A stretch of DNA of 57,145 bases, counting the filler, from Sphacelaria rigidula (lineage: Eukaryota), in NCBI GenBank assembly GCA_964200075.2. It is 2 parts of 2 records of this genome, joined end to end, with 100 filler letters (N's around TTAATTAATTAA, not from the genome) between each part and the next. Parts side by side here need not be neighbours in the genome. Positions count along the whole stretch, not along the records: positions 1 to 28,604 come from CAXNAA020000097.1; 1 more part is not named here. One strand, 5' to 3'. The position numbers and the translations under genes were made by a program. The notes under the pieces are model-generated. The model saw nothing but the letters and a program-made list of their open reading frames with translations, was not told where the DNA came from and did not search any database. Numbering within the stretch: position 1 is the stretch's first letter; every line of letters begins with the position of its first letter. Positions 1,247-49,931 of this stretch are shown one piece after another.

Positions 1247-4200
1247 ATGGCTGCATTCCTGCACAGGATGTCGACAGCCATGTACAAGTACACTCTATTC
1301 TTTGGTTCCGCAGGCGTCGGTTCGTTGATGTGCAGAGCATTCTCCGGGACTCCAGCTTTACCCTCGCGTTCTACACCCGGTCCAAGTGCTACGCTCACCT
1401 CCAAACTGGGTGTCTCGTTCACCCCAGGAGGACTACTGTTTCCATTTCATCTGGGCGTGGCAAAATCCTTGGCGAAGGAAGGCTTCTTGGCTACAGATTC
1501 TCCTCTGGCGGGTGCTTCCGCGGGGTAAGATGGATACGACATGTGGTTGACGTTCCGATGTATTGTAGTTACGGCCTTGCCACACACAGGCACGCGCGTA
1601 TTCTATAACGGAAGAAGGGCAGCTGGACGGTCTCTATGGTTGTGTGGGTAGATGCTTTCGTGGGTGTATGTTGGCATCCACTGGCCAACGAAGGGAGCCA
1701 AGCATTGATTTGTTTCGTTGACGAATTAATTTCCGCTTGCATGTACAGCACAAACTAAAGAGGAATGATTCAAGATTCAAAATACATTACATCTGTCTCT
1801 GTGCGGCGAAACTGGTCGATCTGGGCCGAAAGAGCAATCTGAACGACCTAATCTCCTGTGGCCAGGTCGCCTGACCATGTTTTTGAGGGGTAATGTGGTC
1901 ATAACACTGGGATTGAGATCACCTGGGTTTATTATGCCAAGATTTGCCGGCAATCTTCTTGTGCTTTCCAATAGCGCTTGGTAACACACATCAAACACGG
2001 CATGGGCATATTTTCAAGAATCGTGGAAAATTGATGTCGGTAATAAGGTCGTGCACATCTGTTCGCACCAGTGACACGCCAAAATATCTCACGGCAACGT
2101 CATCACAAGCGCATAAAACTGGGGACTGGTCAAGGTGATCTCGGACAATCCACCTCCACCAAAATCACCTGAACTCAAATCGCCCCCGAGAACCTATGTT
2201 CCAGATTACTGCGCATGAAAGTCGGTCTGAGGGTATGTCTTCGGACATCTTTTTTTTTTTATCAAAAATGTGTGGTTGAAAAGAAAAATTCCCAGCTGAA
2301 ATTCTTGCACCGATTATGCTCGTACCGAATCTGTCTAAACTGTTGTAGCATATGAAGCGAGGGTACTAGCACACTAATCAGTTCAAGCCTCTGCGATGTG
2401 ATATATCGTGATTTTATCTATCGTCATTTTTGTTGGTTCCACGACATATCACACCCGACTTTTGGTTTTCCAAGGCACTTTTTCGATCGAAGAATGATGT
2501 GTCACGACACGGCACTAATAGCGGGTGTCTTTCCAAAGTAAAAAAATCGATTGAAAAGCAAAGCGGCGGCATCGTGAGAATCCGATTTGATAGGTCCACG
2601 TTATTAATGTTCTTGAATTGCTTCGACGATGATGAATCACTCTTTGCGCGCGACCGGGAGGCAAAACTGGAGCAGCTTACCTTATTCGAGCGAAATCATG
2701 CGGCGGAAAGGCACGAAGGGGGACCTGCCTCTCATTTTGCGGATCACCACGCTAGATACCACCCGTTCGCAGATCCACGCAGACCCCACACAAATAGTTT
2801 CTCAGCTACCACCGCAACCCTCCAGGATACAGCAAGAATTGAATCCAGGAATATTCGCTGTAGTAGTTAGGAACCGGCGCTGTCACCTGTTCGCCATGAT
2901 GCGTTTCTTTATTGCTGGCGGAAACTTGAGCATATTCCTACATGATAAGGGTCGGTGACGGAGTTGCACGGTAGAGCGGGCGACCGAATTGCATAGACGC
3001 TCACTGACAGTACAGACAGCGCAAAACTGTACATTGTTCAAATCTTCTTCACATCCTGCTGGATGCAGATGATACAGACAGTACGGTATGTCTGGAACTA
3101 CAAGCGATGAAGTATCACTTCGCAGATTCCGCCGCTTTTGTCGCTTCTGCGTTTGCAAATTCGCTCGAACTCAAATCGCGCTCAACAAACGAATTCGATC
3201 GAAATGCTTCCACCGCACTTGAATGTTCGATCGATTTATTCCCGATAAGGCACGCCATCAGGCGAATTCTTTTTATAAACAATCAATCGCTTTTCTCAAA
3301 ATCGTTTTCGAAAAAACTGTCCGTGATTGTTCGCTGCGATATCACCACTCGAAAAAGTGCCCTTGCGATCGCCTAGCGTTGAAGGCGTCCCGGGGTAGTA
3401 GAGGGAGCAGTTGTACAAATTTCCGTTGCGTAACTCCAAAAACTGATGTAAGAAGGTTATTTCAAAATTGAACGTACCCGAAAAAGTTGTTCCGATTCCA
3501 TAGCCAAGTGGTCGGGAAATGGCACCTTTCAAAGGTCTAAACGAGACGCTGCTGCGTCGAGAGCGGCCAATCGAAGAATCCTGGACGGTTCGTACGAATA
3601 AAAAGTGATTCGACTCATATTCAACATTTGGACGAATCAATCATACGATTTGTACACAAGGTGTGACTTGTACATGTTTTGAAATCGTGATTCGTACGAC
3701 ACCACTCTGAGTGTACACATTCCCGGTTCGCGATTCGTGCGGTACACCGTCAGAAGGTACACTTGTCCTACCTTTCATTCGTATGACGTGAATCATAGAA
3801 ACATGTTTCTCACTTTCCATTCATTCAGCATGAATCACAGGCACGTTCTTAGTCTACTCTGTTGTACGTTTTCTGCTTCCCTTTTTCTTGAACGAGTGTT
3901 TTGGTTTGGTTTTGTCTTGGGTACGTCTATCATGTGACCACGGCTGGATCATGACTCCTGGGGGGTCAGTTGAAGTGCGACAATCATCCAAAATCAAATC
4001 AATCAAACTCACTTCATCGCACAAAAGCGCGAATGTTCACACTGGATTATACTCCGAAGCACTGCACACATACATATAGTATGCGTCATGAGGAAAACTT
4101 CGATTAATGTTTATCTCGCCGGTTATCGAGGGTCCCAGAAGGGCACGTGATTCCCAATGAAGGACCCTGGGACCCCCTCTAACGGGGCGAAAAAAAGCAC

Positions 4201-7200: not shown

Positions 7201-10200
7201 GGCTGAAGCAGTATTCAACGAGTGCAGGGAACGTGGCGCGGCGTTTAATTTGAAGTGAGATTCCGCTGTATGGATGCGCATTATGCCAGAAACACTGCCG
7301 CCTTTCGTATTTGGCCTGCTACCTAGTACTAGCTTGCGGGGGTATATGAGCCATATCGACACTGTCTACCAAGGGTGGCGGGGAAATTCTCAATGCAAGA
7401 AGGGGCGGCCAGGTCAGCAGCGTCAATCTCTTGTTCGCCAAACCCAAGTCGTGATCGTGCTGTTTGTCAGCTGCGATGAAGCTCGTGTCTGAGACGCCTC
7501 TGCCTCTGCCCGGTGGTTTTTGCCGTATGGTTGATGCACGGAGCAAGCAGCTGTGTTCGCGAACATGGCAAACCGAAGAAGAATTTTTTGTTACTTACCC
7601 GGCGCAGTCGATGGCACTTCTTCGCCCAGTTCATGACTCGAAGTCAATGTCAGGTCTGTGAGGCCTCCCCGAGACTCCAGGAGTAGTGATCACGCAATTA
7701 CGTCAGCGTATGATGGGATCAGAGTACCCTACAAGCGTTAGCTACACGTGGGTGACTGTAACAGTCGTCCCTTCTTGTCCTCAGGGAGATCGTGGCACGA
7801 GGGCTCGACAACGCGCTGCCAGTGGACGCGCACGACATCCTCAACAATAGGACAGGGCGTGTCACTATTGGCGTGACCGAATTGCTTCCCCGACCGAAGG
7901 GAACTTTTGTGACCAAATTCACCTCCAGGGCAGACCTGATCGAGGTACTGCTTGGGTCATGGTAAGTCTTCCGTAAATAGTTGGTGGGCGACACTGTTGT
8001 AAAGAAGGTTTCGTCGCAGCTTGTGTTGTGAGTCCGCAGGCCTGCTGTGCGAAAAGGGCACGGATCTTCCAGTCAAGTATTTTCATTCCTTAATTAACTA
8101 CTCTCAACGTTGTTTATCCATCTCGAAGCCAGCTGGTTGCGAGCTGGGCTTCCTCCTGTTGTCAAATGTCAGAATCGCTTCTGAGCTCGTCGACGGGGCG
8201 TTCGTCTCTGTGCATGAGCAAGCGGTATTTTTGGCTCAGGCATTCCGGCGAATCTTGGATTTCACGCACTACGCTCGAGATGGGTTCGTTGCCTTTGGTG
8301 TAAGCATCACTGGAGCCTTTGCAATCGAAACGCAACTGCTTTCCACTAACGTTGCGCCCTTATGCCCTGTCTGCTGCGAACTAATTCTACCGTGGCGTTC
8401 TACTGTGGCGGTCTGTGATTATGGTGGCAACGTCAGTCATGTGCCTTTTTGGTTCAGTGGGGTGAGTGCTCCGCGACCGATTTCAGATAGCTTTTGGTCT
8501 GGAGGACATCGGCACCGTACTCGTAGGTACGAGTAGCTGCCCCCGTTTACGTTTAGGGAAAACTTTCTCCTAGCATGCGGCTCCCGTGCTGCATGAACCA
8601 AATATTGAGATGGGCGTGCCTGCACAGATGATATGTTTGCGCTGGCGTATCTACGTGTAGTAGTTGAGTAGATCCTGGTAGTTTTGACGTCCGTTTTGGA
8701 CCTCACACGGTCGTGTGGCGGTTGAAGAGACAACCAAGTAGACCACTGACCAGTTAGCGCTGACTGATCAGTAGTTTACTTGGTTGTCTCTTAAACCGTC
8801 ACACGAGTTAGTCGCGGGTTCGATTCCCGTCGGACGCACTTTCTTTGAAGAAAAAAGAGGAGAGAAAACCGCTGATAAAAAATTGGCCCCAAAGAGAGAA
8901 AACCTCTGTAAAAAAATGGCCCAAAAGAAAAAGGGTGGGGTACAGCCTGGTGGCTATGTTTGGGGTTGACTGCTAGGGCCAGTGCACACACTCTTGGAAT
9001 GAGTGGGGCAGACGAGTAACTCTAGGAACGGTGAAAGCGACAACACTAGAAGTCTTGTTGGCAATCGATAGAGCGCTGGCGAGGGGAGTTGCCCTCCTCG
9101 GAGTAAAGTGACGGGGATCAAACCCCCACGACTAACTTCTGTGGCTTTGAGAGACAACCAACCAGACTACTGACCAGTCTGCCAGACTGGTCAGTAGTCT
9201 AGTTGGTTGTCTCTTAAACCGCCACGTGTCTCTGCGTTGTTGAGCTCGCTGTGTATACTGTATCTTCGTCGGGATACAGAAGTGAGGAAAGTACAGTCGT
9301 GACCTGGCCAGGCATAACCGCGATCAATGTCACTTGCTGTAATACTCGGCCCTCTCGTTCCGTATCGACCGATTCATCCCCACGAAACAGCGGCCATATA
9401 TGTATGTGAGGGGAAAGCCTACTGTCGACGGGTTTTTTGCGACTCCGGTCAAGGAATTCGGTGCGCCGGGAATTGCCAGCGCCGATCAGGTTCTCCGAGT
9501 GACCGTGTTTCCTACGACAACAGTTGAAGTGCAAGCCGATCAACCTGGGGGCGTGATTTCTCCAGATCTTCTCGACAGGTAGTATCTATCGTGAACGCGT
9601 CGGGGTCTGGAAAATTCTAGCAAGAGTTGTTTCCGCAAGAGCACAGTGTTGCCGTACGACAATAGCAGCGATATTTTATGTTGTTCTCGTTGTTGGTCAT
9701 GTCTGTATGAAATTATGTGTGGTGTCGAGCGTTAACATCCGATATGCCTGTGTTGCGGGATTGAGGCGGATCGACGCAAGTTTTCCAACGAAAGGAGCCT
9801 TGAATATTTTTGTGGACATGAGATGCCGACGCGCTGTTGACATCTGTCGTTGTCGTGCAGGTACGCAAGTGGACGCTTCTTGGAGCTCCTGAACTATGCG
9901 CTCAACCCCGGGAACGAGGTTGTCACGGCTGAACTATTCGAGGCCGGATTTGAATCGGGTGCGTACGGTATTTTGAAGGAAGGCCGAAGACTGGGTTTGC
10001 GTTGGAGGGACCTAAGATTAGTCCAGTCGCCCTCATTTGGTTTTCGGTGCGTAGTAGCTTGATGTGTACAAAAGCAGTCGTACCCTCTCGCGAGTGAGCC
10101 TAGGTCATATTTTGAGTAAACAGCTCATTATGCGATCATAGCTCTACCTGCCCTGATTTGGCCAAGTAGCTCTGCAATCCGAACGTACAGGGGGGGAAGG

Positions 10201-15154: not shown

Positions 15155-18100
15155 ATGTCGCCTGGACCGGAGAAACAAGCAGGAAAACTCCTGAGCCTTC
15201 TCGCCGAAGGTCTAGTGTCGCTTTGCATGAATAATGAGTCTCATCGGTTGTTGATCCTAAAATAGATGATATCGCCCACGGAGCATGTATTGTAGCGCAA
15301 CAGCCCACCTCACCCTCAGTGCAGTAGTATCGACCCAGCACTAGCACGTTACCGTGGTCTAGTCACGAACCTCATAGCGCTATCGGTACCGCAAGGAACG
15401 TACGTGTGCTATCAACTTCAACGGCGCTCGGTCTACCTCCGTACCTTTTCAATTGCGTGTTAAAATTCATCTATACCGCCGGTGCCAATTGCTGTACTCG
15501 GTGTGCACATGTACGAAGCATAAAGTGCTGTACTGTACTGTACTGTACTGTACTGTACTGTACTGTACTGTACTGTACTGTACTGTACTGTACTGTACTG
15601 TACAGTGATTGAGTACGTACACCCCAGGCGATTAGTCTGTTCATCCTAAGAGTGTCGTGAAGCAAAGACCCTGCGGTGACTCCAGAGGCACTTTATCGGC
15701 TATTTTTCAGAACATCTCGATGATGCCTCTCTGCTGACAAGAGTTTCGGCGGCGTTCGGGATCATCCGTGTGACCGCCAAGATTTCGAGAAAATTGACGG
15801 TTGAAGAGTTGTCGCCCAGAGGGTGTTATACCCCGTGAGGTCAGCTATTCTACTTTGTGCTGTGCTGTGAGGAACGCGACCCCCAACTCCGCTACACTAC
15901 AGTCGTCGCCTGTACTGCACCGTACTCTTCTATAGTATCGTGCAGTATATATAGTACACTCGAAGTAAAACAAGCAACGCACCTATGAAACATGTTCTCG
16001 AAAGCTCGAGAGCGGGCTGCGCAACCTGAATACGTTCTCGTTGCATGGTCTCTTTTATTTGTCGCACTTTGAACCCCTTCCCTTCCTTGGTATCATTCAG
16101 TAATCTCAAGGAATCAACCCATCTCTACCCGGTACACACCTTGCATTTCAGTCTCGCGGGTTGAGTTATGACTATCAGCACTCCCGCACGTGTCAACTCT
16201 CGCCGAACAAAATCAGTCAACTACAGTCCCACTGGATCATGTAGCGTAGATGGCCGCCGGTCGGCCGTGTAGACGCTAACCGTCGAGACTCACATCCTTC
16301 TTCGGGCGCTCGAAGGGGTTACTCGAATTTCTCGAGTTCCTCAAATTTCAATTTCGCAGATTCTTGCCTAGTAATACCGTAGGAGCCTAACAAGGTTTAT
16401 CATGGTTGAACGAGCGGGCCGGGGTTTTCTTCTCAACATGTTTAACCCTTAGACCGCGAGGTTAGTCTTCTGTTGAATCGGCATCAATTTCAAGTGGAAA
16501 AAAGTTTCCATGATCCAGAAAGACTAATCTCGCCGTCTAAGGGTTAAACGCAAAAATCGATCGAGGTCTACCCCCTTTCCCCAACTCTCGCCCCCTTTCC
16601 TCAACTCTCGACTCCACCAGCTCCCGCTTTGACAGCAGGGGTTCATCATGAGGACAAGCTTGCCGCTGTGGTTTTTTTATGCGTGTTGCTTGTGTACATG
16701 GCAACCTGTGCTCGTCCAACTCAGTTGACTGTCGGAGGGGACTTGACGCTAGTACAACCTCAAGCTATAAAATCAAAGCACCCAACATCGCCCGCACGCG
16801 TCGCCTACATAAGATACACTCCTTTCCAAATCGCCCCGCCGCTCAGGTGTTCAGCAACAGCTCCTATGTGCGTTGAAATCTTTATACTTACATAGCCATA
16901 TGTATTTACCACTATTGACGTGATCGCCACCCCTAGATCATAATATCATTGTCCTCGGACAGCAACGTGGCGCTGATCGTGTCTTACGCATGGACAGTTA
17001 TGACGCACGGCATGTGTTTTGCAACCGTCTTTCCGTGTTGGCATCGTTTCTCCACTAAACATGACTATTTCGACGCCCCCAAATTATTCGGCCAAGTGGC
17101 GGCCACTGACGACTGGGCACTCGAAGGATCAACTCTCAGGCACAAAACTCTAACTTATCACCCTAAATCGATTGTTGTGCACAGGGGGTCAGGACAGTTA
17201 CAAACTCTATTGGCTGGGGCTGACAGGAGTCGAAATTGTCCAAGAAGGGGTGTCATGCTCAAATAGTTCATCACCTGAGGAAATCACGCACTTCACAGCA
17301 TAGCGCAATAGTACAACGGTGCACACCCGCTGCATTTTGCGCTATGGTAGGATACGAATTTCCTACCCCAGTGCGGTCGTTCTCACATGACAAACTCCAC
17401 AAAACCCTGCCCTGTTTTCATCTTCCCATCGTGATCATGAAACTCTGTTCCAGATGGCAAAGAATATGGCAGTCTCGTGGCCGAAAGGCTTGTCAAGCTC
17501 GTGCGCTCGGAGCCACTGGAGACACGAGATGCGCTGCACAGGTGTGTGAAAATAGCGGGGTGTTATCGGGTCCCAGGTACTGTATGGTGTGTCACTTGTT
17601 GTGATATTTGTCCGTCCGTCTGATGGCTTTGTGGGCATGTCGCTAAACGCGGCATGGCTGTCTGAATTTTCAGGATTTCTAAGTGTTTCATAGCACAATC
17701 TATGCACCAAGTGTACCCTACCGCTGGATATCACGCTTGTGTACTGTCCGTGCAGCACGAGGACAGCGGAATATACACAAGTACCACCTCTACGGCACCC
17801 TATTGTCGTGTACTACCATTTCTGTCCCTATACGTCTGGGAATAGTGACACACTCACATAGTCAGACCTCCATCCCCTCTCCTGTTCCTGTCCTACCCTC
17901 GAACCCGTGCGCGACAAAAATGATGTCTTCGACTGAAACGACCTTTTGAAAGGCGACTCGTCGTGGGTGCGGCACCCTATCTTTCTCACACGGCGTGGTA
18001 CGCGCGAGTAGCTGCGGCGTCCTGTTTGGAAAGCTTGGCACGGCTGGAATGCGGTGAGACGACCAGAGAGATCTCGGGAGGAGAAAGGGGCAAAATCGTG

Positions 18101-19653
18101 GCCGTGACTGTCAACGTGCTTTTCCGCTGAATTCGTATCCCAGTTATCCCTGGCAGAGCAATACGCCGGCTTGTCACTGACCAAGGCTATATTTCATAAG
18201 AGACTAGATACCAGCTGATATTCATCCACATTGCATTGCTGCTTCAAAGCGGACTTTTCCCTGAAGTTATTGGGCATCGCGGGTGGATGAAAGGAGTGGT
18301 CATAACCGCCGCGCCTCGGTGGTCTAAATCAAAATGGTACAACTGAAACCTTTTTGTTACGGCGGAAGATTGAGGATCCGAAATGCCGACATTTTCATTT
18401 TCTTTTTTTTTTCTGTGAGAGGTATCCGATTTCCGTCCTTGACAAGGCGAGGGCGTGAGTAGCACAAGAGGGTTTTTTGACGAGAGTCGTCGCGATTTGG
18501 AAGCGTTGGTCATGATCCGATCCGCGATACCAACATATAAGGCTTGTACTGTGTGAGGCATGGGGTTGAAAATCGTGACAGAAAAATATTTGGATAAAAA
18601 AATAGGGGCGGCGGAGAAATGTGAGCACTGTAAGGTCAACCCCACATGCACTCACGATGGTTACCCTATACAGTGATATCCAGAAAAATAGGTAACAATA
18701 CTACACAAACCAGCCGTTACCGTTGATGTCGTATGCCGTCATGTTCCATGTACTATGCAGTTTTGTTCTTCTTTTGTCACATAAATTCGACTCAACGGTC
18801 GACGGAGGAAAAGGATCGCTGAATATTTTTCGCGATAGAAAGTAAGGCGAACACCGCGGAAGGAAGGCGGAGTTCTTACACAAAAAAGAAAACTCCTGTG
18901 TCTGCCTTCCTCCCATGTGACCCCGGCTGATGCGCCCACATGTTCCGAAAGGTGTAGACGGGCGTCCACAACAGATGGAATGATCACACACACATGAATA
19001 CTTTCATCTCCCCTCTCCTTACTCGAGATGAGTCCGTAGCCAAACAAACCCTTATCTCTTCCCCGGTACAAGCCTCACATTTTGGTACCGAGGATTGGAC
19101 CAGCACTACTGCACCACATCCACCCTCGTCAAGTGCATCTACTTTTTTACTCATGTTCTCGCGTTCTCAACGACGAAAATCAGATACTTTTCACAAAAGA
19201 AGGAAAGAAAAAAGTATCTGCCAGCACTCGAACCCGCAATCTTCCGCCCTAACCAGTTTCAGTTGTACCAGTCAGATGTAGTACAGTCGGACGAACCCAC
19301 CGTGAGGCTGGTCAGTTTACAAAGCCGGTGTTTGAGCTCTACAATATACTATTAAAAGTGAATCTGCTCAAAAGTGTGGGAAGTTTGAGTGTAATATCGA
19401 CATGACCCGCTGATTCTCTGCAGTAGTCCTGCGTATTGTTTTTTTTGCGTAAAGCTCTCACACCATTCGGACCCTGCTGTTGTAGAGTGCCTACGATTGC
19501 AACATTACGGCATATATCCACACAGTAAAAAAGGCAGAATGGACCACAAACTACCTTGTTCACCCTCACCTTTTTTGTCTCGGGTATGTGTATCATGTGG
19601 ATAATGACCACGGGTGGATCATGACTCCTGGGGCATCAGTTAAAGTGTGACAG

Positions 19654-19697
<44 letters not shown>

Positions 19698-22600
19698 CTT
19701 CGGTGTGCCGAGTAGACCATCGCTGTCCGTCTCCTCCGGCTAAACAACAGTAACCAGTAGGCCATCGGCTGAGGAGGTCGCACCAGTAAGCACTGCTTCG
19801 TCAAGGCAGCAGCGGTCGCCGGACGAACGTTTAGGGGAAAAGGACCCTATGCTGACCACGGAGGAGAAGCTAGCTCGAGGGTGGGTGTCGCTTGAAGATG
19901 TGAGACTGCAGCAAGTGTTGGGGAGGGGCGTGCTTCTGCTAAGCCGCGGTGTACAGCAGGTGCGCATTTGGCTGCTTGTTTGGGGAGTAGTTGCTGTTGT
20001 GGCTGCCTATGCTGCTCTCTTTGTCGTTGTCGTTGTCGTGGCTGTTGCTGTTGCAATGGATATGGCTACTTATACTGTTGTTTTTGTTGTAGGTGATGAC
20101 GGTTTGCTATTTTTGCGGCCGTGAATGGTATACTAGACCCTCTTTTTCCCGTTGCTGTTCAAGCCATGCTGTTCGAGCGTTGTGTTGGTAACATACATTG
20201 TTTTGCCATATGCACCGGGTGGTGTACGTGACAGACGAGTGTCTTTTGGTTCTGTTCTGTGAGTGGTACTTGCAAACGGTCGGACACACACGTCGCTAAC
20301 TCATTGAGCAACTTCGCAGCCGTTCCCCGGTGGTCTAACTAGTTTATTTGATTGATTGATTGATTGTCGCACTTTAACTGACCCCCCAGGGATCCAGCCG
20401 TGGTAACATGATAGACACACCCAAGACAAAACAAAACCGAAACACTCGCTGAAGAAAAAGAAGAAACTAGTGGTGGTGCTTTTACATCCTAACCCGGCTA
20501 GGACGGAAAGTTCGGGGTCCGAATCGCGGCAGCAGAAGCGTCGTTGAAAACAGGAGGATGAGCGTGGCAGCGAATGTTTTGACGGAAGTCGACTCGGTGG
20601 GAGCGGGGGGGTGTTTGGTCATGATCCAGTCCACGATACCACAAAGTGTCGAGCATGATGTATGCACCGGGTGAGATACGGATCGATTCCTCGAGGCCAC
20701 GGGCGAACTCGTCCCGAGGAAGAGGAGGGGGTTCGAAGTATTTCTCAACAGATGCTCATTTTTTCCCGCACACTGCTCTGACTTCACCAACCCCTCCCCT
20801 CGCGAGACTGTGATTCGAACCCTTGATTCGTCGTTCAACTACTCTTGCTAATCTCGTGCAATACTCGGCCCTTATTCTGCTTGGGGTCTGAAGTATCACC
20901 TAAATATTTTGTTCTTCTTTACTTATTCGTGGACGTCACCTTTTTTTCGCCAAAAACGTCGTAGGATATCGCGATACAGTCGGAGGCGGCTTCTTTGGAT
21001 GTGGACGCGCGTGTGGGTCGGCAGCGCAAACGCCTCCTCAAGTGCCTCGGACTGGCGGGCGGGGGCAGTGGCGATGCTCGTGCTGCTTCTTTATATTCCT
21101 GTTAAGTCTCGTCGTCATTCAGCGTTAAAGAACAGCGGATCATCGACATTAAGGATGGAGCTTTTGATTGAGGATGAGAACCCGGAGGATTAAAATCTTT
21201 GAGTCTACACTAAATATGGTTCCATTCCTTCACCTACTGGTAGCTATTGACAAGTACGACACGTCACACAAATTGCGATTTCGATAACCGAAATATTGGG
21301 GTCCTAGATGAAAGAAATTTTTTGGGGAATTTAGGTGATCCGATCGGATCGCCAAAATTGCCCGAAATCGGTTTTTCACCTAGGACCCCAACATTTCGGT
21401 TATCGAAATCACAATTTGTATGACGTGTCGTACTTGTCAATAGCTACCAGTAGGTGAAGTAATGAAACCATATTTAGTGTGAACACAAAGATTTTAATCC
21501 TCCGGGTTCTCATCCTCAATCAAAAGCTCCATCCTCAATTTCGATGATCGGCTGTTGAAGGGGTAAATCCGCGCTTGTGTGTAGGTGTCAGGGATGTTGG
21601 ACGTGTACCGGGTGGGTAAGATCTCTACCAGACCTGTCCCGTCCTTGTCGTCGGAGCTGAATGAGTTGGGAATTAATGACTTTCATAATCAGCATCCAAA
21701 CGGAGAAATTTTCAGTTGAACTCATTTTTTTTCAGCCTTTTATCGGTTACCATGACTTCTCACGTAGAAACGTTTCGTACCTGAAACTTGAGGATGGAGA
21801 GATATCCGTGCCCGAATACTCTCCGAAGGGAATGTTGAACCTACGATCATATTTGGATGGCTTTCAGGCTAATCGTTCGTCGGGGATCCTACGAGTACAC
21901 ACACAGCCCCAGGTTTAGGCTTTTTGATGTCTTTACTCGATCGAACCAATTCCGATCGTTTTGGTGAATACATTGTCCATGTTTAGTCGCTGTAACATGG
22001 AGCTATCTACTGTGCTACATTCGAAAAATCGTGGTTTTTGGACCAAAATACAGGCAAGAACACCCCTCCCTCCCGAAACAATATTCCAACGTCGCATTGC
22101 CCCAATAGAAGAAATTGAGAAATATCTACTGTGAAATACCTGTTTCTTGCAGTGTCTACCGATTCCAAAACTCTCGAGTGGAAATGCTTTTGCGAAAAAA
22201 TCCGGACCACGCAAATTATCCATCACAGGAGTACGTTAACTTTTACGTATTCTCTTCTCCGAACCGATACTTTTGGCGGTTGGGATCCCTTTGCACGATA
22301 AGCACAATAGGCACGATAGGCCATGCAACGCCGTGGTTCCGTGTATCCAGATGCGTTTCACATTGGAATTGGAAATCATTGGCTGCACGTTCACGCTGTG
22401 GCCCATTCGCCAACAGTCATGTATATGTGGCACGTTGTTGACACCTCATCAAAGAAGCGGGGGCGGACGCTAATTGTTCCAACGGCAGGTCGAGTAGAGT
22501 ATACTCAATTGCGGGGTATTTTGCAAGACCTACTCGAGGTACTCAAGTTAGAGTAGAGGGTCAGGAGTCGTACCCCAAAAAAACTGGAAAGCGATCCCTA

Positions 22601-25600
22601 AAACGCTACCCCCAATTTGTGTACTTCAAGTACGACTTTCACAATACCCCGCAATTGAGTATACTCTACTCGACCTGCCCTTGAATTGTTCATGTGGAAT
22701 CTCCAACTAGCGTCTTGTGGGTGCCTTCCAGGGTTCCACCTGAAAAGTATGCGGTTTGAGCGACGGATCCTCGTCACTTTCGACTTGTTTTCGCGTTTTT
22801 TACTTGACTTGTTGAAAATCTCTTCTTCTGCAGCACTGGGGGACGTGATCGACGATGAGGACCTTGCAGGGCCTCGTAGCACGCACAATGCTGCCGAGAA
22901 AAAATGTGTCGACGACGGTAGCAATTATCCTAACTCCGACGCGAACAAGATGACGCTCAGCGCTCGACAACGTAATCGTCTAGCAAGGCATCGGCGCTCG
23001 ACGGGGTTCGGCTCCGGTGGCGGTGGTACTACGATGTCAAGCGGCGGCAAGCGGCGGCGGCAGGAAGGTACCCCCGGCGGCGCCGATTCCACCGATGGCG
23101 ACAACAGCAAAGAAAGAGGCAGCGGCGGCGGCAGTGGGCTGGGGTCACGCGGAGACTTGGGTGCTGCGGCGTTTTTGGGACCAGGCGGGGGGATTATGGA
23201 AGTGGCTACGGATGCCCGCGGAGCGCTGGTGTCCCTTGCAGCTGACCTTGTAACTCAGGCGAGTTTGCGTTCTGGAGCATGTGTAGAGTGACAGGACAGA
23301 GGCGGACGAAGGGGGGGGGGGCACGTTGCGTGCGGGTGGTTGAAATCTGCGCAAGTATCAACACTACATCCGTGGACGGCGCCAGGAGGGGATGGTGACA
23401 CAAGATATGTTGCTGGTGTAGTGCGGAGTAGTATTTGGTGTGAACGGAAGAGAGTGTCCCGTTTTTTGTGTCTGTAGTGATCCGTATCTGCCTTGCTTCT
23501 GTGTCCACTGTGTCCAGATAAAGTATACAGGTGGAGACGAGAAGAGAATGTCTGCGTGCATACAAACATCACTGTTGAGTCAAAGACGCTGGAGAAGTTA
23601 CGTCAACCTGATATCATTCTTTATCGTGATGCCGGTGTAAGATCGTCGGCTTGGTTCCTTCAACATCCTTCAAAAGCGTCTCTTTACAAAATGCACAATT
23701 CCCATAAGCGGACGATAGCTTTGTGCTGACGATACGACGTGTCATTCCGTTTTAGTGATGACAGACTTTCTTCCTTCTCTATCGTTGTGGCCATTTGATT
23801 GTTTTATTTTTATTTTTCTTGTCTCTCGTGTCCCTTCGTCGGGACTCGCGCGCCGACCTTCGATTCTTTTACGCCGCTGCACTATGCCGCATTATGCAGC
23901 TTTTCCATCCTGTATGGCAGTGTCGGCACGGAGCTGCCTTGGGAGCGTTGTCGATCCTCCGGGCGTGGAATGCACGCCGTCGAAGAGGGGAGCCTGTGCC
24001 CTACGGTGATAGGTGAAAATACTTGGATTTTCGAATAGACAGGAACGAATCATACCTGTTGGTGGGACATGACTTGGCGCACGCGGAGCAGGTTTTTTTG
24101 CTCGCACCGTGTACGTAGGCTTGATGGGTCCCCTGCTTTAACAGGGGAGTTTTTTTCGTTTTTGTTTGGATACGCGTGTGTGTGCATTTGGTATAGTTTC
24201 TTGTGACTATTTCCCCGCAAACAAAACGACGCACGAGGCCTTGGTTAGTTCTCTGCACGGTGTCTTGCACCGCCGTCATTTATCTGCGCTATACAGTAGC
24301 CCATCAGAAAACGCGCGTGCAGCGCGTTGAGTCGGCTCTTCGCTGTGTCTAATAGTCAAGTCTTTCTTGTTGGTCGTTAGCTCTTCTGTCCTGATGATGC
24401 CTCTGGCGTCGGTTTGTACCTGCCTTCGGTGACAGGATGGAAGCGTGGGCTGAAGATGCCGTTGCTCGATGCGTTTGCGTCCTGGCGCTGGACCAATTCG
24501 GGGACTACAGCGGCCGGTGAGAGAGTGTACAGCCTGGTCGCATGAATACGGACGCTCGCGTTCCAGGTAGCATATGATTAAGTTGCATGGATGTTGAACA
24601 TTCCATTTGAGATGCGAAGATCGGCTAGCCAGACTTGCATGTACGTTCAAACGAAAATCCTGCACTCACCAGTAATTGAGTCGGCTGTCTTTTGTTTGTC
24701 TCTCGGTCATTTTGTTGCTCACACTAGGGGGTGGGGGGGGGGGAGGGGGGCGTACTCATTTGTTGCTTGCCTTAGTCGTTTGACCATTGATCACGCATCC
24801 CTTTCGAGACGAAGCGCACTAGGAGGGGGTCATAGTTTTCAAATATCGCAGCGAAATATGACTGCAAAACCACCGGCGTTTTGTGATCAGGGCATTCGCA
24901 GTGTGTGGTTGGAAGCCGTTGCCGTACATTAAATGTTAAAATTTATTTTTCGGAACAAGGAGTCCGCTGATAAACTACTACAATCGAATACCACATTGGC
25001 ATGTACGCTTTGAGTTCTCCACAAAATATCGTTATCCATGAGGAGGTACGAGATAAAGGACTACCTGTCCCTCGGAAGCGTCGTGGTCGGCCCGAGCTCC
25101 CCAATCGTGTATTTCCCAGCCGAACACGGTACCGGGCGACACAACTGGAGATGCGGGAAGAATCGTGGAACTAAAGGGGGGAAATGTCGCAAAGCCTCCT
25201 CAGCGACCATCGAGCAGTGACTATCCCCTCATGGTGTAAGGGATAGGTTACTTCAACGCTTCGCTCGGCCACGAACTCACGTGCTGTTGTTTGATCTACT
25301 CTGTTCCCCCCCGCCTCTTCCCATGCGGCGTTTAGTATGGTCGCTCCTGTCCGAGAAACGGCCGCGCAGCTGCTAGCCGTAGCGGCGCTGCAGCTTCGAC
25401 CGGACAGGCTTGAGCAGACCGCCACGCTATTGTGCGAACTCACCATGGCTGAAGAGTGGCAGGCCAGGCACGGTGGCTTTTGCGGCCTAGAGTCTCTCTG
25501 TGCTGTGGCGATTCGCGGGGATCAGGGTGAAGGAGGTGAGCGACACCACGGGCAGGGGAGGGGTGGGTGGGGGGGGTACTCATGCTCGTGATCTTGCTAA

Positions 25601-28455
25601 CCATAGTCTTTTGACCATTGACCTCGCATCCCTACAAAGCCGGGACGGAACACGCCGGGTTTTCGCCGGACCAGACTCGCATTCAATCACCGAGCGCGAA
25701 GCGCCATGATGTGTTCGACGAGTCGCACGAAGGGTGAGCTGCATCCTGCTAAGATTGTCCCGCCCGAAGCGTACTGATCCTCCTGCATATGGATGACAGC
25801 CTCGAATCAGCTGCTTCATTTTCTGGTATCGCCACTTCCAGAGACAGCTGCGGGTTGCACACTGCCTCATGGGTGTCACATTTGAAACACTACGTAGAAT
25901 GACCAACTCCTTTGCGCGGAATTGAGGTTCTCTCATCACGCACAATATGATGTAGCTCGACCATCGTCATGGTTACCGCAAAAAAAATACAAGCGTAAAA
26001 AACCGGTAACCTTGTTGCCTAGTTTACGCAGTGAGTGGCGTGTTGTACAGCGTCGTTGCCAACCGACACCAAGCTCGTGGGGGGGGTGTACTCATGATCA
26101 TGCATGCCATAGTCATCCTCGTGGGGGGGGGATATGCTGTTAGAAGGGGGTGTTCCGGCATGGTATTGAGGTTCGAAGGTGGAAGGTACGTCAAACGGGG
26201 GTTTCACTTTTATTCCGCTTTCAGAATTTGTATCGCGTTCGAACATCTGTCGATCCTCAATTCTGTAACGCAAGGTCCACGGTGACGACGCCATGGTCCC
26301 CGAGAAACCTGGCTCTCAAACGAGAGGACAAACTTTCCACATCGAGAATTCCAGGCTTGAGTGATTATTATTGCTTGCAAGGAACCAGCTTGTGCCATCG
26401 CACGAGCGAGTCGTTGATCATTTTCCGCGAAAGTCGTAACGCAGTTCTATTTTGGTCGTTGCTTGTACACCCGGCATCAGTTTGTGCGCCAGGGCATCAC
26501 CCCGAGCACGCTACGAAAATTCTCCGAATGATGAAACGAACGCCACATATCCACTTCCCAGGACACACCAGAACCGTGAATAACGACCAGCTCTCCGAAT
26601 TCGTGTGATTTTGGCATCACATATTTTTCTGACATGTACAGCCCGCTGCTCCGCCCCCACCCACGGATCGCGCCGGCTCCTGCTCTCGGCCGTATATCTC
26701 CCCGTTGCGAACCAAATCCATTCCAGCCTCACGAGAGCATTCACTATTTCTTCGAGGCTTGGTTTTTCGCGTGGTTCCGAGGGGCCTTCAGGACAGCGAG
26801 GAGGACGTTTGTGCCGCCGCCGCGAGGGCCGCGCGTCTGGTAACGAAGCGATTTCTGCCGCTGTCTTGGAGGGTCGGCGGGACAGTGATGGACGCCGATG
26901 AGCTGTCGAGTCGTAGAACGCACGGGGGTGAGACCGGGTGCACCGCTGCCGCCGGCCACAGCGAGGTCAGAGCCAAAGCTGTTATGGAGGAAGCTAGTAG
27001 TGGTATATCTGCCCCTGTGAGGAAGCAGCACAGTACCGGCCGCCGGCGTGAACGGGGGGCGGAGGGAGGGGCGGCGGAGAGCAGCGGAGGTGGTGGTGAC
27101 GCGGGTGTGGAGGAAAGGGTGGAGGAAAACGAGAAGGAGATTTTCCATTTGGTATGGAAGGCGTTGGGCGCTTTACATCAGGATTCCGCGTGCGTCGAGG
27201 TGAGGAGAGGAGAGGAGAGATACGAACAAAAGAAGGACAAGACTATCGTCAGCGTTTTCCCAGGAGTTTCAGAATTTTCTTGCTAGCGTAGAGTTAAATT
27301 TTTCGTCCAGTCCCTGTTTGGCGGCTGATGAAATCACGAAAAAAACATTTTTTACGGTAGCATGTTTTGTGTGGTAGTCAGCGATTGCCAGGATATTGTG
27401 GTCGCACGTATCGTGTTACTACTCCCCGAGTACATACGGCTTGAGTAACAATCTACGCTCGCCCCTGCACCGACTCCTCTTCCCTGGCTTTCTGCGAATG
27501 CCCCCTCGCATGCTCCCTTACTTTAATGCATGCTGGATCAGTCATCTTCCGTATGGCACCAACGAACACGCTCCACAACCCCGTCCCCGTCACCATGAGA
27601 GACTAAGTGGTCGACCCTACTGTACCCCCCCCAACCCAACTGCAGTCCTCGCTCTGCCACCTCAACCCTGACCCCAACCCCACCCTTGGCCCCAACCATA
27701 AGGATATTGCGGATCTCCTCGAAATATGTTGCGACGACGCCGCGAGCCGGAGCCGACGCCGGAGAAGCGGCGGCGGAGCAGTTGATCCTCTCACTGACGA
27801 AGGAGGGGACAGGTTGCAGCGGCTGTTGGAGCTGTGGGGGGACGGCCGCGCGCGTGTGCGGGCCTCTGCGGTGCGGTCGTTGTCTGCCCTCGCAGGGGTT
27901 ACCATTGCTGATGGTGGTGGTGTTGTTGGTGGTGGCCGTGATGGGTGCGTTTGGCGTCACCGTGTTGGGCTTGTCGTTGTGTTGTTGAGCATCCAATCGT
28001 TTTGTCTGGCAGTTTTTTCACGTCTCTGTTTTCTGTCACCGTGGTACAGCAGGAGCAAGATATTCGGCGCGGCCTACCTTTAGTTATTCTCCCGAAGTGT
28101 GTCTTGCTGTTTCCTGGTGAGGGTAGCACGCCGCTACCTTGGTACACGGCCACGGGGTGTGTTCGTTAGACACCTGCCATTCCCTTCACAGATGTTTACT
28201 GATAGCACATCAAACCCAGCACGCATTTTCGCCCTACTTATATTTCGTTGGCTGTTCCCCCAGAGCCCGTCATGGTACGGCAGCTACCCCGACAAGCAAA
28301 GAAATAGCAGGAGACACTTCTTGGGCCATCAACGTGAACGGACTGGGCGCCCGGTTATTACGGCGATGCTTTCGCGGGATCCTGTTCGAGACCGACGATG
28401 GCGTGAGGGAGCAAACCGCCCAGCTCTGGAAGGCGCTCCTGCCAGGAATGCAGCG
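15155..28455 (+). CDS. BTAF1: TATA-binding protein-associated factor BTAF1/Mot1 (N-terminal HEAT-repeat part, first 12 exons, ~770 aa; 3' part lost at the assembly gap)
   Basis: Exons 15155-15209 (least certain), 17454-17541, 17953-18053, 19751-19959, 20965-21100, 22834-23258, 23900-24012, 24436-24516, 25336-25535, 26727-27199, 27703-27944, 28264-28455; all phases join. Mot1-type motifs: YLSHTAWYARVAAASCLESL, RQRKRLLKCLGL, LSARQRNRLAR, LFHPVWQCRHGA, WAEDAVARCVCVLALDQFGDY-MVAPVRETAAQLL, WQARHGG, GLQDSEEDVCAAAA. Confidence 0.9.
15528..15603. repeat. (TACTG)n microsatellite, ~15 units
   Basis: Perfect pentanucleotide run seen directly. Confidence 0.95.
16446..16543. mobile_element. piggyBac-type miniature element (98 bp)
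   Basis: TTAA|CCCTTAGAC(C/G)GCGAG(G/A)TTAGTCTT ... AAGACTAATCTCGCCGTCTAAGGG|TTAA: CCCT/AGGG termini and TTAA duplication (16442-16445, 16544-16547). Confidence 0.8.
18300..18490 (+). mobile_element. tRNA-derived SINE-like repeat, copy 1
   Basis: A-box-like GGTGGTCTAA, then tggtacaactgaaac...ggcggaagattg and a degenerate B-box; homologous over ~160 bp to the inverted copy at 19121-19280. Confidence 0.55.
19121..19280 (-). mobile_element. tRNA-derived SINE-like repeat, copy 2 (inverted)
   Basis: Minus strand reads tggtacaactgaaactggttagggcggaagattgcgggttcgagtgc (B-box GGTTCGAGT), then a T-rich body matching copy 1. Confidence 0.55.
19571..19697 (+). mobile_element. Non-LTR retroelement 3' end with (CAAT)n tail, copy 2
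   Basis: ggatcatgactcctggggcatcagttaaagtgtgaca followed by ~11 CAAT units; matches 3881-4007. Confidence 0.7.
20341..20460 (-). mobile_element. Non-LTR retroelement 3' end with (CAAT)n tail, copy 3 (inverted)
   Basis: Reverse complement matches 3881-4007 over ~120 bp, including gtcagttaaagtgcgacaatcaatcaatc. Confidence 0.7.
21131..21556. mobile_element. 426-bp foldback (palindromic) element in BTAF1 intron 5
   Basis: Arms of ~213 bp are complementary end to end around the central palindrome GATCCGATCGGATC (centre 21343/21344), with long perfect blocks such as cttcacctactggtagctattgacaagtacgacacgtca. Confidence 0.9.
22480..22683. mobile_element. MITE (204 bp) with 41-bp TIRs and 8-bp TSD, hAT- or P-superfamily type
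   Basis: TIR CAA(C/G)GGCAGGTCGAGTAGAGTATACTCAATTGCGGGGTATT with one mismatch; perfect TSD AATTGTTC at 22472-22479 and 22684-22691. Confidence 0.9.
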
Positions 28456-28604: not shown

Positions 28605-28704
28605 NNNNNNNNNNNNNNNNNNNNNNNNNNNNNNNNNNNNNNNNNNNNTTAATTAATTAANNNNNNNNNNNNNNNNNNNNNNNNNNNNNNNNNNNNNNNN
28701 NNNN
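28605..28704. other. Artificial scaffold linker (44 N + TTAATTAATTAA + 44 N)
   Basis: Exactly 100 bp, with a six-frame stop cassette in the middle. Confidence 0.95.
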
Positions 28705-48909: not shown

Positions 48910-49354
48910 GTGAGAAAGAGCCCACCGCGGGAAAGACAGGATACACCCTGATTGTGACCATCATTATGACACGACATAAGTACTGCCCAAACGTGCATTA
49001 GCTCGTGGCCAAGTGGTTTCGCAAATTTGAGATTTTTTAACTCCGCCCTCTACCCCTGCACCGTCTCAAAAGGAATGCGTGATCAATGATCAAACAACCA
49101 AGGCAGGCAACAATTGACCCCCCCCCCGCGCGCGCGTGCGCCCTTTATCCCCCTGCCCTCGCAGGGAAAAGTTGGGTTTTTGAGCACCCAAAAGTTGAAA
49201 AATAGTAAGGTCTCTGGCACCGCAGTCGTGTGTGTCCTGGTTGGCCTTGTAATGCGTGAGAAGACCGCGTACCTAGAGGACCGCGCCGTTGTTCAAAATA
49301 CCTCAGGATCGACGTTTTCAAAACCAATCGGGCCAGTCCCTGCAGGTATCACGC

Positions 49355-49388
49355 CCCTCACCCTAACCCTGACCCTAACCCTAACCCT
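49355..49388 (+). repeat. Interstitial telomere-like repeat (CCCTAA)n, ~5.5 units
   Basis: ccctca ccctaa ccctga ccctaa ccctaa ccct, directly abutting the 5' LTR homology. Confidence 0.85.
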
Positions 49389-49920
49389 TCTGGAAACACT
49401 TCCAGAACGTTCTCCGTAGATCTAGATGATTCTGGATTCTGTGTGTGGGGGGAAGTGTTGGAATATTCAATGTCAGTTATTGGTAACGACTACTATCTAT
49501 CGTAAGTTATCGTTAACAAGTAATATATCATTTGAGTATTCCAGAAATAGTCTGCAGTATATTCTGCGGTACATTATGTTTCCAGAACAATTTGTCGGGG
49601 GATTAATCGGGAGTTATCGGTTGTAATATCCCGCGAGTGTTCTAGACGTGTAGAAGTTCTAGAAATTCATTAGCTGATCGGTAGGCTCGCACACTTGGTG
49701 CTCGCCCACCTGATCACTCCTCTACTACTTGTCTTCTTCATCACCATCAGCGAAAACTTGACTTCGGGAGTCAGTCGAAAATAAACATCTCTATTTCTTC
49801 AGTCAAATTCTCTGACGGATCAAACCGTGGCCCGAGTGTAATCCTCCACGGTAGGCTACTCTGTCTACAAAGCACACGCAGCACAGCACCGCTGCAGCTG
49901 CAGGACGCTTTACACTCTCA
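49387..49920 (+). repeat. 5' LTR (apparently 5'-truncated)
   Basis: Direct repeat of 55830-56356; ends in CA just before the PBS; homology starts abruptly at the CCCTAA tract; AATAAA at 49780. Confidence 0.9.
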
Positions 49921-49931
49921 GGTTATGAGCC
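49921..49931 (+). promoter_or_regulatory. Primer-binding site complementary to the anticodon arm of initiator tRNA-Met (half-tRNA priming type)
   Basis: GGTTATGAGCC directly after the LTR; its reverse complement GGCTCATAACC matches the tRNAiMet anticodon stem-loop; no TGG 3'-end-type PBS. Confidence 0.85.

What the first reader, a model, noticed from the sequence alone, without database searches (positions are those of the whole stretch)
8687..9255. tRNA-like RNA whose anticodon arm is replaced by a ~45-bp covarying hairpin (two copies)
Seen: copy 1 (8687-8838, +) folds as a cloverleaf with a 6/7-bp acceptor stem, a 4-bp D-like stem, a perfect B-box T-arm, a discriminator A and a T-rich end. 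The anticodon arm is instead a 96-nt hairpin (42/48 Watson-Crick pairs plus 3 G-U by hand count). Copy 2 (9255-9111, -) has the same hairpin followed by AGTTAGTC and a B-box. The copies differ by compensatory changes on both arms (CCAAG/CTTGG vs CCAAC/GTTGG; an A-T to T-A swap near the apex). Known: A/B boxes drive Pol III; tRNA-derived SINE heads and tRNA-linked small-RNA precursors exist. Inference: a Pol III-transcribed mobile family carrying a Dicer-sized hairpin inside a tRNA scaffold, i.e. a possible self-promoting small-RNA cassette. I do not recognise this architecture as a described class, but cannot exclude an already catalogued SINE.
Basis: partly seen in the sequence, partly recalled or inferred. 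Interest (0 to 1): 0.75.

Follow-up and report, generated by a model that had tools for sequence, protein, structure and literature searches.

The report
Hairpin-ended mobile repeat with tRNA fragment
The two "tRNA-like hairpin RNAs" are most likely the two inverted ends of one roughly 510-base, very abundant mobile DNA repeat inside an intron of an algal gene; each end carries a long palindrome and a piece that looks like the last third of a tRNA, so this is an ordinary selfish repeat with an unusual build, not a new kind of RNA gene.

Summary
Both hairpins are real (z -10.6 and -8.7). Copy 1 has a perfect B-box T-arm. Two both-arm changes separate the copies.

The cloverleaf is not a family feature:
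- ARAGORN (introns allowed) and Rfam find no tRNA.
- There is no A box, and no T run of 4 or more follows copy 1.
- The two copies share only 8715-8831 / 9225-9110.
- The 5' "acceptor/D" part lies in DNA with single-copy depth.

Contigs of four public runs show the whole block, about 8700-9250, is highly repeated. Other copies bridge every internal junction. The two "copies" therefore read best as the 117-nt terminal inverted repeats of one ~511-bp non-coding element (8715-9225). It lies in a GT..AG intron (8462-9390).

Best reading (0.6): a MITE/foldback-like transposon whose ends are an ~88-nt palindrome plus a tRNA 3'-half relic.

Pol III transcription and small-RNA output are untested. No further full copies could be fetched.

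One oddity stays open: all three letters by which copy 1 departs from the family add base pairs to the tRNA-like fold.

Interest is low to moderate.

The parts
8715..9225 (.). Whole repeated element (~511 bp): left end, A-rich subrepeats, body, right end.
   Evidence: Summed contig depth rises from 67 (flanks) to 9e3-8.7e5 only between bins 8700 and 9249 in X1. X3 shows the same rise from 25-33. The ends are set by the extent of the inverted match 8715-8831 / 9225-9110.
8715..8802 (+). Palindrome P1, the outer part of the left terminal inverted repeat. In this copy the pairing extends to 8711-8806.
   Evidence: I8 (48-nt arms, 88%); fold; arm comparison.
8807..8838 (+). tRNA 3'-half-like piece of the left end: GTTAGTC spacer, T arm 8814-8830 (B box 8817-8827), CGGACGC 8831-8837, A 8838.
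   Evidence: The family majority has T, not G, at 8816, which breaks one T-stem pair (table 3).
8687..8714 (+). Single-copy intron DNA that happens to complete the cloverleaf-like fold in this copy only (CGTCCG 8688-8693; GACC/GGTC 8699-8712).
   Evidence: Depth is 67 in X1 and 25.4 in X3 for 8650-8699, the same as distant flanks. Not shared by copy 2.
8860..8928 (+). A-rich 33-nt subrepeat, 2.1 copies. The number of copies varies among family members.
   Evidence: TRF score 110. table 5: joints skipping 34-57 nt within 8854-8932.
8936..9095 (.). Internal body of the element.
   Evidence: Other, diverged copies bridge it to both sides. table 8: records 11 (8845-9073), 22 (8850-9085), 18 (8810-8978), 7 (9003-9135), 23 (9003-9136).
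9110..9139 (-). T-arm-like piece of the right end. It has a degenerate B box and no CGGACG.
9140..9225 (-). Palindrome P2, the outer part of the right terminal inverted repeat.
   Evidence: I13; fold; (sub-threshold matches to generic miRNA hairpin models only).
8712..8715 (.). Candidate 4-bp target-site duplication CGTG, left copy. It holds only if the termini are TGGCGG...CCGCCA. The alternative is a 2-bp GT.
   Evidence: Rests on a single locus, so it is weak.
9225..9228 (.). Candidate 4-bp target-site duplication CGTG, right copy.
8462..9390 (+). Host intron (929 nt, GT..AG) that contains the element.
   Evidence: One contig each in X2 and X7 joins 8460 to 9390 (cut +1). X1 and X3 have no such contig (table 5). 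GTGAGT at 8462 and AG at 9389-9390 are seen.

Best explanation
The finding is one copy of a very abundant, non-coding, ~511-bp mobile element (8715-9225) inside a 929-nt intron of a + strand gene.

Build. Its two ends are ~117-nt terminal inverted repeats. Each end has an outer ~88-nt near-perfect palindrome. A tRNA-derived relic follows: spacer AGTTAGTC and a T arm with a B box. In the left end the 3' strand of an acceptor stem and a discriminator A also follow. Between the ends lie A-rich 33-nt subrepeats and a ~160-nt body.

How it most likely works (inferred, not shown). It moves as DNA, like a MITE or foldback element. A transposase encoded elsewhere would recognise the outermost bases, and would leave a 2- or 4-bp target duplication.

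The cloverleaf. The look of copy 1 arises because single-copy intron DNA to its left happens to pair, or has come to pair, with the relic. It is not a property of the family.

RNA consequences (inferred from what is known of MITEs; not tested). When the host intron is transcribed, each end folds into a ~44-bp hairpin and the two T-arm pieces pair with each other. This makes the element a plausible passive source of siRNAs.
For: - Repetition: only the block between bins 8700 and 9249 is repeated. Summed contig depth there is 9e3-8.7e5, against 67 in both flanks (X1). X3 shows the same pattern. 4755 contigs were laid in X1 and 3706 in X3, most of them 90-99% alike.
- Inverted ends: 8715-8831 matches 9225-9110 in inverted orientation, 81.5% over 119 nt. 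Nothing else in the window matches. Covariance model R1 finds only these two units in 57 kb.
- Recurring junctions: diverged contigs from other copies bridge T-arm-1 to the A-rich part to the body (records 2-5 and 18-21). Others bridge the A-rich part to the body (records 11, 22) and the body to the inverted T-arm-2 (records 7, 23) (table 8). The internal arrangement therefore recurs.
- Left/right asymmetry: fewer than 10% of reads lack CGGACG at 8831-8836, since no such row appears in table 4. No majority change is listed in 9111-9138 among the rows shown. So the left/right difference looks family-wide.
- Outer edges: the flanks outside the palindromes are unrelated in the two ends.
- Fold: the whole element folds with both hairpins, and the two T-arm pieces pair with each other (-254 kcal/mol, z -14.2).
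- No coding: no stop-to-stop ORF of 120 aa or more lies inside it.
- Precedent: a MITE carrying a captured SINE part is known, MER6 (PMC6887750, abstract read).
Against: - No full-length second copy could be read. The contigs are 130-290 nt unitigs that cannot be phased, so 'both ends on one molecule in most copies' is inferred.
- The target duplication is ambiguous (GT or CGTG), and no autonomous partner is known.
- End depth of about twice body depth fits two ends per element. It equally fits one 'head' shared by two families.
- Copy 1 departs from more than 99% of family depth at 8804, 8805 and 8816. All three changes create Watson-Crick pairs in the tRNA-like fold. In addition, the flank carries a 6-bp acceptor complement expected in 1.5% of windows.
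- Two both-arm differences among about 12 arm differences are more than independent drift predicts.
- The B-box letters are intact in the family majority.
Confidence: 0.6

Rival explanations
1. Two SINE-like retroposons share one 'head' (palindrome + B box) and lie tail to tail. A + strand element has an A-rich tail (8715 to about 8935). A - strand element has a different body ending in a C-rich terminus (9225 to about 8936).
For: - The two units are followed by different sequence after the shared CACTTT.
- The A-rich part ends at 8935, and the next bases read CCCCACCC on the - strand.
- X1 record 6 aligns only from 8929 onward; 104 of its letters upstream do not fit.
- In Ectocarpus, curated 'possible SINEs' share a left end and have (A)n or (CA)n ends, and RTE-X relatives have C-rich termini (PMC12477816, supplementary table, passages read).
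- Head depth is about the sum of the depths of the two tails.
Against: - Several diverged contigs from other copies cross 8935/8936: records 18, 11, 22 and 2-5. The junction is therefore not private to this locus.
- No A box.
- No flanking duplication of 6 bp or more beyond what the search space gives by chance. One 6-mer was found in about 5000 boundary pairs tried.
- Both outer edges are the palindromes, as expected of terminal inverted repeats.
Confidence: 0.13
2. One reading: a Pol III gene family in which a tRNA scaffold carries a Dicer-sized hairpin in place of the anticodon arm, and promotes its own small-RNA output.
For: - The B box is intact in copy 1 and in the family majority.
- The hairpin and T arm are linked in other copies (loose ends at 9225).
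- Copy 1 has a 6/7 acceptor pairing and a discriminator A.
- The three private substitutions of copy 1 all add pairs.
Against: - The 5' half is not in the repeat and is absent from copy 2.
- No A box, and no T run of 4 or more within 560 nt downstream of copy 1.
- The family majority has a T·C mismatch in the T stem at 8816.
- ARAGORN and Rfam make no tRNA call. The excision test gave 5 of 3581 calls, none with the proposed acceptor.
- The units occur as an inverted pair bounding one element.
Confidence: 0.06
3. Local exaptation. This particular copy, sitting in an intron, has been reshaped into a structured intronic RNA. The candidates are a mirtron-like or hairpin small-RNA precursor, or a tRNA-like processing signal. 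The rest of the family would remain plain transposon.
For: - The three private changes 8804, 8805 and 8816 all add pairs.
- The acceptor complement in the flank has a 1.5% chance expectation.
- The copy lies in a spliced intron.
- Ectocarpus has many palindromic loci that give multiple small RNAs (PMC4513859, passages read).
Against: - Hairpin 1 is the more decayed of the two (6 unpaired positions of 48), the opposite of what selection on the hairpin predicts.
- The statistics are post hoc and rest on one locus.
- A DNA-level process could give the same pattern: repair templated by the extruded hairpin, which lengthens palindromes.
Confidence: 0.1

Closest known systems
MITEs and foldback-type non-autonomous DNA transposons (for example TcMar-N1_Ec32 of Ectocarpus: 217 bp, 57-bp TIRs; PMC12477816 main text and supplementary table, passages read)
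   Same: Short, non-coding and very abundant. Common in introns. Bounded by terminal inverted repeats. Strongly self-folding.
   Different: The inverted ends are long (~117 nt). Each is itself a near-perfect ~88-nt palindrome plus a tRNA 3'-half-like piece. The superfamily, target duplication and autonomous partner were not established.
MER6, a Mariner-type MITE that carries a V-SINE-derived domain (PMC6887750, abstract read)
   Same: A DNA-transposon shell that has captured and spread a piece of a Pol III-type retroposon.
   Different: There the captured piece is internal and single. Here the tRNA-like piece is part of both inverted ends.
tRNA-derived SINEs
   Same: tRNA-derived sequence with an intact B box, an A-rich region downstream, and a high copy number.
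   Different: No A box and no tRNA 5' half in the repeat. The unit occurs as an inverted pair. No SINE-type target duplication was found.
Pol III tRNA-linked small-RNA precursors, such as the tRNA-miRNA units of murine gammaherpesvirus 68 (recalled from general knowledge; no paper read here)
   Same: A tRNA-like element lies next to a Dicer-sized hairpin.
   Different: In those units a complete tRNA-like gene with A and B boxes lies upstream of the hairpins. Here only the 3' third of a tRNA lies downstream of the hairpin.
'Complex, extensive palindromic' small-RNA loci of Ectocarpus, classed as weak miRNA candidates (Tarver et al. 2015, PMC4513859, passages read)
   Same: Palindromic genomic regions of several hundred bp, often intronic, in an alga.
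   Different: No small-RNA data exist for this element, and sequence relatedness could not be tested.

Membership tests
tRNA gene (with or without intron) | Recognised as a cloverleaf by a tRNA finder | tested here: not met
   ARAGORN finds 0 genes in the window and 0 with introns allowed at default threshold. Only at an 80% threshold do odd calls appear, starting at 8707 rather than at the proposed acceptor.
tRNA gene (with or without intron) | Match to the Rfam tRNA covariance models | tested here: not met
   No hit at gathering score. At E up to 10 there is only tRNA-Sec at 15.8 bits (gathering score 47), E 3.8.
tRNA gene (with or without intron) | T arm: 5-bp stem and a GTTCGANTC-type loop | tested here: met
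   Copy 1, 8814-8830, with perfect B box 8817-8827. The family majority has T at 8816, giving one mismatch. Copy 2 is degenerate.
tRNA gene (with or without intron) | 7-bp acceptor stem closing the molecule | tested here: inconclusive
   6 of 7 pairs in copy 1 only. The 5' strand lies in single-copy flank. Chance expectation is 1.5%. Absent in copy 2.
tRNA gene (with or without intron) | D arm with conserved residues (A box TRGCNNAGTGG) | tested here: not met
   The best match inside the proposed RNA has 3 mismatches, the modal value for random windows.
tRNA gene (with or without intron) | Anticodon arm recoverable after removal of an insert | tested here: not met
   5 of 3581 excision variants gave an ARAGORN call. 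All start at 8707-8718 inside the hairpin arm, and none uses the proposed acceptor.
tRNA-derived SINE | Internal Pol III promoter: A box and B box in a 5' head | tested here: not met
   The B box is present, the A box is absent. The tRNA 5' half is not part of the repeat.
tRNA-derived SINE | Flanking target duplication of about 5-15 bp around a head-to-tail unit | tested here: inconclusive
   Only one 6-mer (CCTGGT) was found among about 5000 boundary pairs, which is about the chance number. One locus only.
tRNA-derived SINE | 3' tail shared with a partner LINE | not testable with these tools
   No genome or repeat library is held. The FASTA supplements of PMC12477816 are unreadable.
MITE / non-autonomous TIR transposon | Terminal inverted repeats at both ends | tested here: met
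   8715-8831 against 9225-9110, 81.5% over 119 nt. The two ends pair in the fold of the whole element.
MITE / non-autonomous TIR transposon | Short, non-coding, high copy number | tested here: met
   511 bp. No ORF of 120 aa or more lies inside. Summed depth is 1e3-1e4 times the flanks, with thousands of contigs laid.
MITE / non-autonomous TIR transposon | Fixed-length target-site duplication | tested here: inconclusive
   GT (2 bp) or CGTG (4 bp), depending on where the ends are drawn. One locus only.
MITE / non-autonomous TIR transposon | Autonomous partner with the same termini | not testable with these tools
   No genome is held. Nothing similar occurs elsewhere in the window.
miRNA / hairpin small-RNA precursor | Precise small-RNA duplex reads from the hairpin | not testable with these tools
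   Only assembled contigs were available. The Rfam miRNA matches are generic and below gathering score, for example mir-BART15 at 32.5 against 70 bits.

The most novel reading that the evidence does not exclude
The tRNA 3'-half module (B box, T arm, acceptor strand) beside a Dicer-sized hairpin may not be a dead relic. It could be a working handle carried by thousands of copies. It might recruit TFIIIC/Pol III, or tRNA-processing enzymes such as RNase P or tRNase Z, to cut the hairpin out of host transcripts. At this locus the intron flank and three private substitutions would have completed a full cloverleaf. That would be the birth of a tRNA-scaffolded small-RNA gene from a transposon end.
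Probability: 0.06. Interest if true: 0.7.

Novelty: new member of a known kind. Interest (0 to 1): 0.25.

Why it matters
As read here, it is one more abundant non-autonomous transposon of an alga. It is useful for repeat annotation, and it is a warning that a B box next to a hairpin does not make a Pol III gene.

Its build is uncommon: an ~88-nt perfect palindrome plus a tRNA 3' half forming each inverted end. It shows how tRNA or SINE fragments can be spread by a DNA-transposon shell, scattering thousands of potential TFIIIC sites and intronic hairpins through genes.

If the minority reading were right, it would be a new route from transposon to small-RNA gene in a lineage where miRNAs arose independently.

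Tried and rejected
GETTING MORE COPIES
- No genome is held for this window.
- Exact-pattern scans gave nothing useful. Viral contigs: 0 hits for two strings. Metagenome contigs: 2 hits without a hairpin, which are chance. Prokaryote genome contigs: 2 hits in bacterial MAGs with no tRNA, which are chance.
- Earlier findings of the scan: nothing by sequence, place or words.
- As a result no alignment of many copies, no covariation test and no consensus could be made.

EXPRESSION
- No RNA holder is listed.
- X2 and X7 are RNA only by a guess, although each holds one spliced contig across the intron.
- Family contigs are present in them. Contig depth cannot rank expression or show ends or strand, so nothing is concluded about autonomous transcription.

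'EXTENDED PALINDROME' IDEA
- I tested whether the left flank is a decayed inverted copy of the T-arm part.
- Local alignment found only the 6-mer, score 6, and 1540 of 2000 shuffles did as well. Rejected as unsupported.

ARAGORN AT 80% THRESHOLD
- It gives three overlapping, mutually inconsistent calls (Pro, Ala, Glu/Asp). Rejected as noise.

LITERATURE
- Seven full-text searches found no description of this architecture.
- No paper contains four short strings from the hairpin, one of them searched in both DNA and RNA letters and one in RNA letters only.
- The curated Ectocarpus TE library could hold a relative (PMC12477816). Its FASTA supplements cannot be read here, and it is not known that the window is Ectocarpus.

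BACTERIAL-STYLE PROMOTER/TERMINATOR SCAN
- One search is not relevant to a eukaryote.
Full report
WHAT IS IN THE SEQUENCE

The hairpins are real. Positions 8711-8758 pair with 8759-8806 (48-nt arms, 88% complementary, I8). Positions 9146-9181 pair with 9183-9218 (94%, I13). As RNA, 8687-8838 folds at -86.8 kcal/mol (z -10.6, 0 of 200 shuffles as good). The - strand of 9105-9260 folds at -78 kcal/mol (z -8.7).

Right after hairpin 1 come, in order:
- AGTTAGTC;
- a 5-bp T stem around the only perfect GGTTCGANTCC in the window (8817-8827);
- CGGACGC, then A.

Upstream, CGTCCG (8688-8693) can pair with CGGACG (8831-8836).

Copy 2 (- strand) has the hairpin and AGTTAGTC. Its B box has two mismatches. 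It has no CGGACG and no acceptor complement.

I compared the four arms over 44 columns:
- 30 columns are identical in all four arms;
- 10 differ on one arm only;
- 2 have gaps.

IS IT A tRNA OR tRNA-LIKE GENE?

- ARAGORN finds nothing in the window, and nothing with introns allowed at its default threshold.
- Rfam has no hit at gathering score.
- At E up to 10, Rfam lists only generic miRNA-hairpin models far below their cut-offs, plus tRNA-Sec at 15.8 bits (gathering score 47).
- I removed the hairpin in silico with 3581 boundary pairs. Five gave an ARAGORN call. All five start inside the hairpin's 5' arm, and none uses the proposed acceptor.
- The best A-box match inside the proposed RNA has 3 mismatches, the commonest value for random 121-nt windows (1750 of 2984).
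- No run of four or more T occurs on the + strand between 8839 and 9400, so the "T-rich end" is not a standard Pol III terminator.
- The tRNA likeness is therefore limited to the last third: variable-loop-like spacer, T arm, and acceptor 3' strand.

WHAT THE TWO COPIES ARE

Within the window the only similarity is 8715-8831 against 9225-9110, inverted, 81.5% over 119 nt. A covariance model built from the two units finds no third unit in 57 kb with filters off. The sequence outside the palindromes is unrelated in the two units.

No genome is held for this window. I therefore laid Logan contigs of four public runs on 8200-9699.
- In the two DNA-like runs, summed depth is flat at 67 (X1) and 25-33 (X3) up to 8699 and from 9250 on.
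- Between those points it is 9e3 to 8.7e5.
- 4755 contigs (X1) and 3706 contigs (X3) were laid, mostly 90-99% alike.
- So the whole block is one highly repeated stretch. The proposed acceptor 5' strand and most of the D-like stem lie in single-copy DNA.

Diverged contigs from other copies cross every internal junction (table 8):
- T-arm 1 into the A-rich part and beyond 8936 (records 2-5, 18-21);
- the A-rich part into the body (records 11, 22);
- the body into the inverted T-arm 2 (records 7, 23).

Behind 9225, 117 contigs (X1) and 105 contigs (X3) run on with a consensus that begins AAAAGTTAGTCG or AAAACTTAGTCG. In other copies too, therefore, the palindrome is followed by the T-arm piece.

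Ends carry about twice the depth of the body.

The simplest reading is one ~511-bp element (8715-9225) with ~117-nt terminal inverted repeats, each made of a palindrome plus a tRNA 3'-half relic. Inside are a 33-nt A-rich subrepeat (8860-8928, 2.1 copies), whose number varies among copies (joints skipping 34-57 nt), and a ~160-nt body.

Folded whole, both hairpins form and the two T-arm pieces pair with each other (-254 kcal/mol, z -14.2).

A 4-bp CGTG or a 2-bp GT direct repeat flanks the element, depending on where the ends are drawn. With one locus this is weak.

CONTEXT

One contig each in X2 and X7 joins 8460 to 9390 with GT..AG ends. The DNA-like runs do not. GTGAGT at 8462 and AG at 9389-9390 are in the sequence. 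The element therefore fills more than half of a 929-nt intron of a + strand gene.

The run labels say alga. I did not try to identify the organism.

MOST LIKELY MECHANISM

What is shown:
- it is a repeated family;
- it has inverted ends;
- it does not code for protein;
- it lies in an intron.

What is inferred:
- It moves as DNA through a transposase encoded elsewhere that recognises the outer bases of the palindromes, as in MITEs and foldback elements.
- The tRNA-like piece descends from a tRNA or tRNA-derived SINE captured into the ends. MER6, a Mariner-type MITE carrying a V-SINE part, is a precedent (PMC6887750, abstract read).
- When the host intron is transcribed, the ~44-bp hairpins are plausible Dicer substrates. 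This would fit the palindromic multi-small-RNA loci reported in Ectocarpus (PMC4513859, passages read). No small-RNA data could be examined here.

WHAT DOES NOT FIT NEATLY

1. Copy 1 differs from more than 99% of the family depth at just three places between 8800 and 8840: 8804, 8805 and 8816 (table 3; 18 further rows were not shown). Each change makes a Watson-Crick pair.
   - 8804 and 8805 extend the hairpin into the single-copy flank (partners 8713 and 8712).
   - 8816 mends the T stem (partner 8828).
   - In the family majority the T stem has a T·C mismatch there.

2. The 6-bp acceptor complement in the flank is expected in only 346 of 22,760 random 45-nt windows (1.5%). A general local alignment of flank against inverted T-arm part is no better than shuffles (1540 of 2000 as good).

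3. Two both-arm changes among about a dozen arm differences are more than independent drift predicts.

These three points could reflect chance, subfamily structure, or DNA-level repair templated by the extruded palindrome. Least likely, they reflect local selection for an RNA fold.

RIVALS

- A tail-to-tail pair of SINE-like elements sharing a head. This is suggested by the different sequences after each unit, and by Ectocarpus "possible SINEs" that share a left end (PMC12477816 supplementary table, passages read). It is disfavoured because other copies cross the 8935/8936 junction.
- The Pol III tRNA-scaffold cassette. It fails on the A box, the terminator, the missing 5' half and all tRNA detectors.

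LIMITS

- No second full-length copy could be read.
- Scans of viral, metagenome and prokaryote collections gave none, or chance hits only.
- The contigs are short unitigs.
- The FASTA library of the Ectocarpus TE paper could not be opened.
- The superfamily, the target duplication, the autonomous partner, transcription and small-RNA output are all open.

VERDICT

This is an abundant MITE/foldback-like repeat with an unusual end structure. It is a new member of a known kind. Interest is low to moderate.

Noticed in passing
window 49387-56357: An apparently full-length Ty1/copia-type LTR retrotransposon. Direct repeats at 49387-49921 and 55830-56357 are 90-98% alike (D3, D4, D13). They flank long + strand gag-pol reading frames at 50494-55357, with protease, integrase and RT-like text in the translations.
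   Followed up: partly
window 21131-21556: A 426-bp perfect-centre palindrome: 213-nt arms, 90% complementary, no spacer (I1). Model R1 picks it up as a generic hairpin. A second palindrome lies nearby, 22480-22549 / 22614-22683 (I3).
   Followed up: no
window 3871-4007, 19605-19669, 20348-20460, 45305-45425: Another dispersed repeat family with inverted arrangement and TTGATTGA-type subrepeats. For example, arms 19627-19669 and 20348-20390 lie 678 nt apart (I2, I7, I10, I14, I16, D10, D12). It looks like a second TIR-type element family.
   Followed up: no
window 24746-24811, 25594-25646, 36641-36707, 49061-49127: A third short dispersed repeat (~60 nt, 77-90% alike) found in both orientations (I4, I6, I9, D11, D18).
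   Followed up: no
window 38644-38820 and 57066-57122: Long poly-C / C-rich tracts (D2). C-rich termini are noted for RTE-X LINE relatives in the Ectocarpus TE table (PMC12477816 supplement). They may mark such elements here.
   Followed up: no
window 15505-15614: A (GTACT)n microsatellite of about 20 units, with a related patch at 575-617 (D1, I15-I25).
   Followed up: no
window 28605-28704: An assembly gap. Runs of N lie on both sides of a TTAATTAATTAA linker (I5). The window holds 98 N in all.
   Followed up: no
window 9391-9581: The exon downstream of the host intron is open in the frame that starts at 9391 (my reading) and contains an ATG at 9400. The intron with the element may therefore lie in the 5' UTR or at the very start of the coding region. 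The spliced contigs continue beyond 9581 (loose end).
   Followed up: partly
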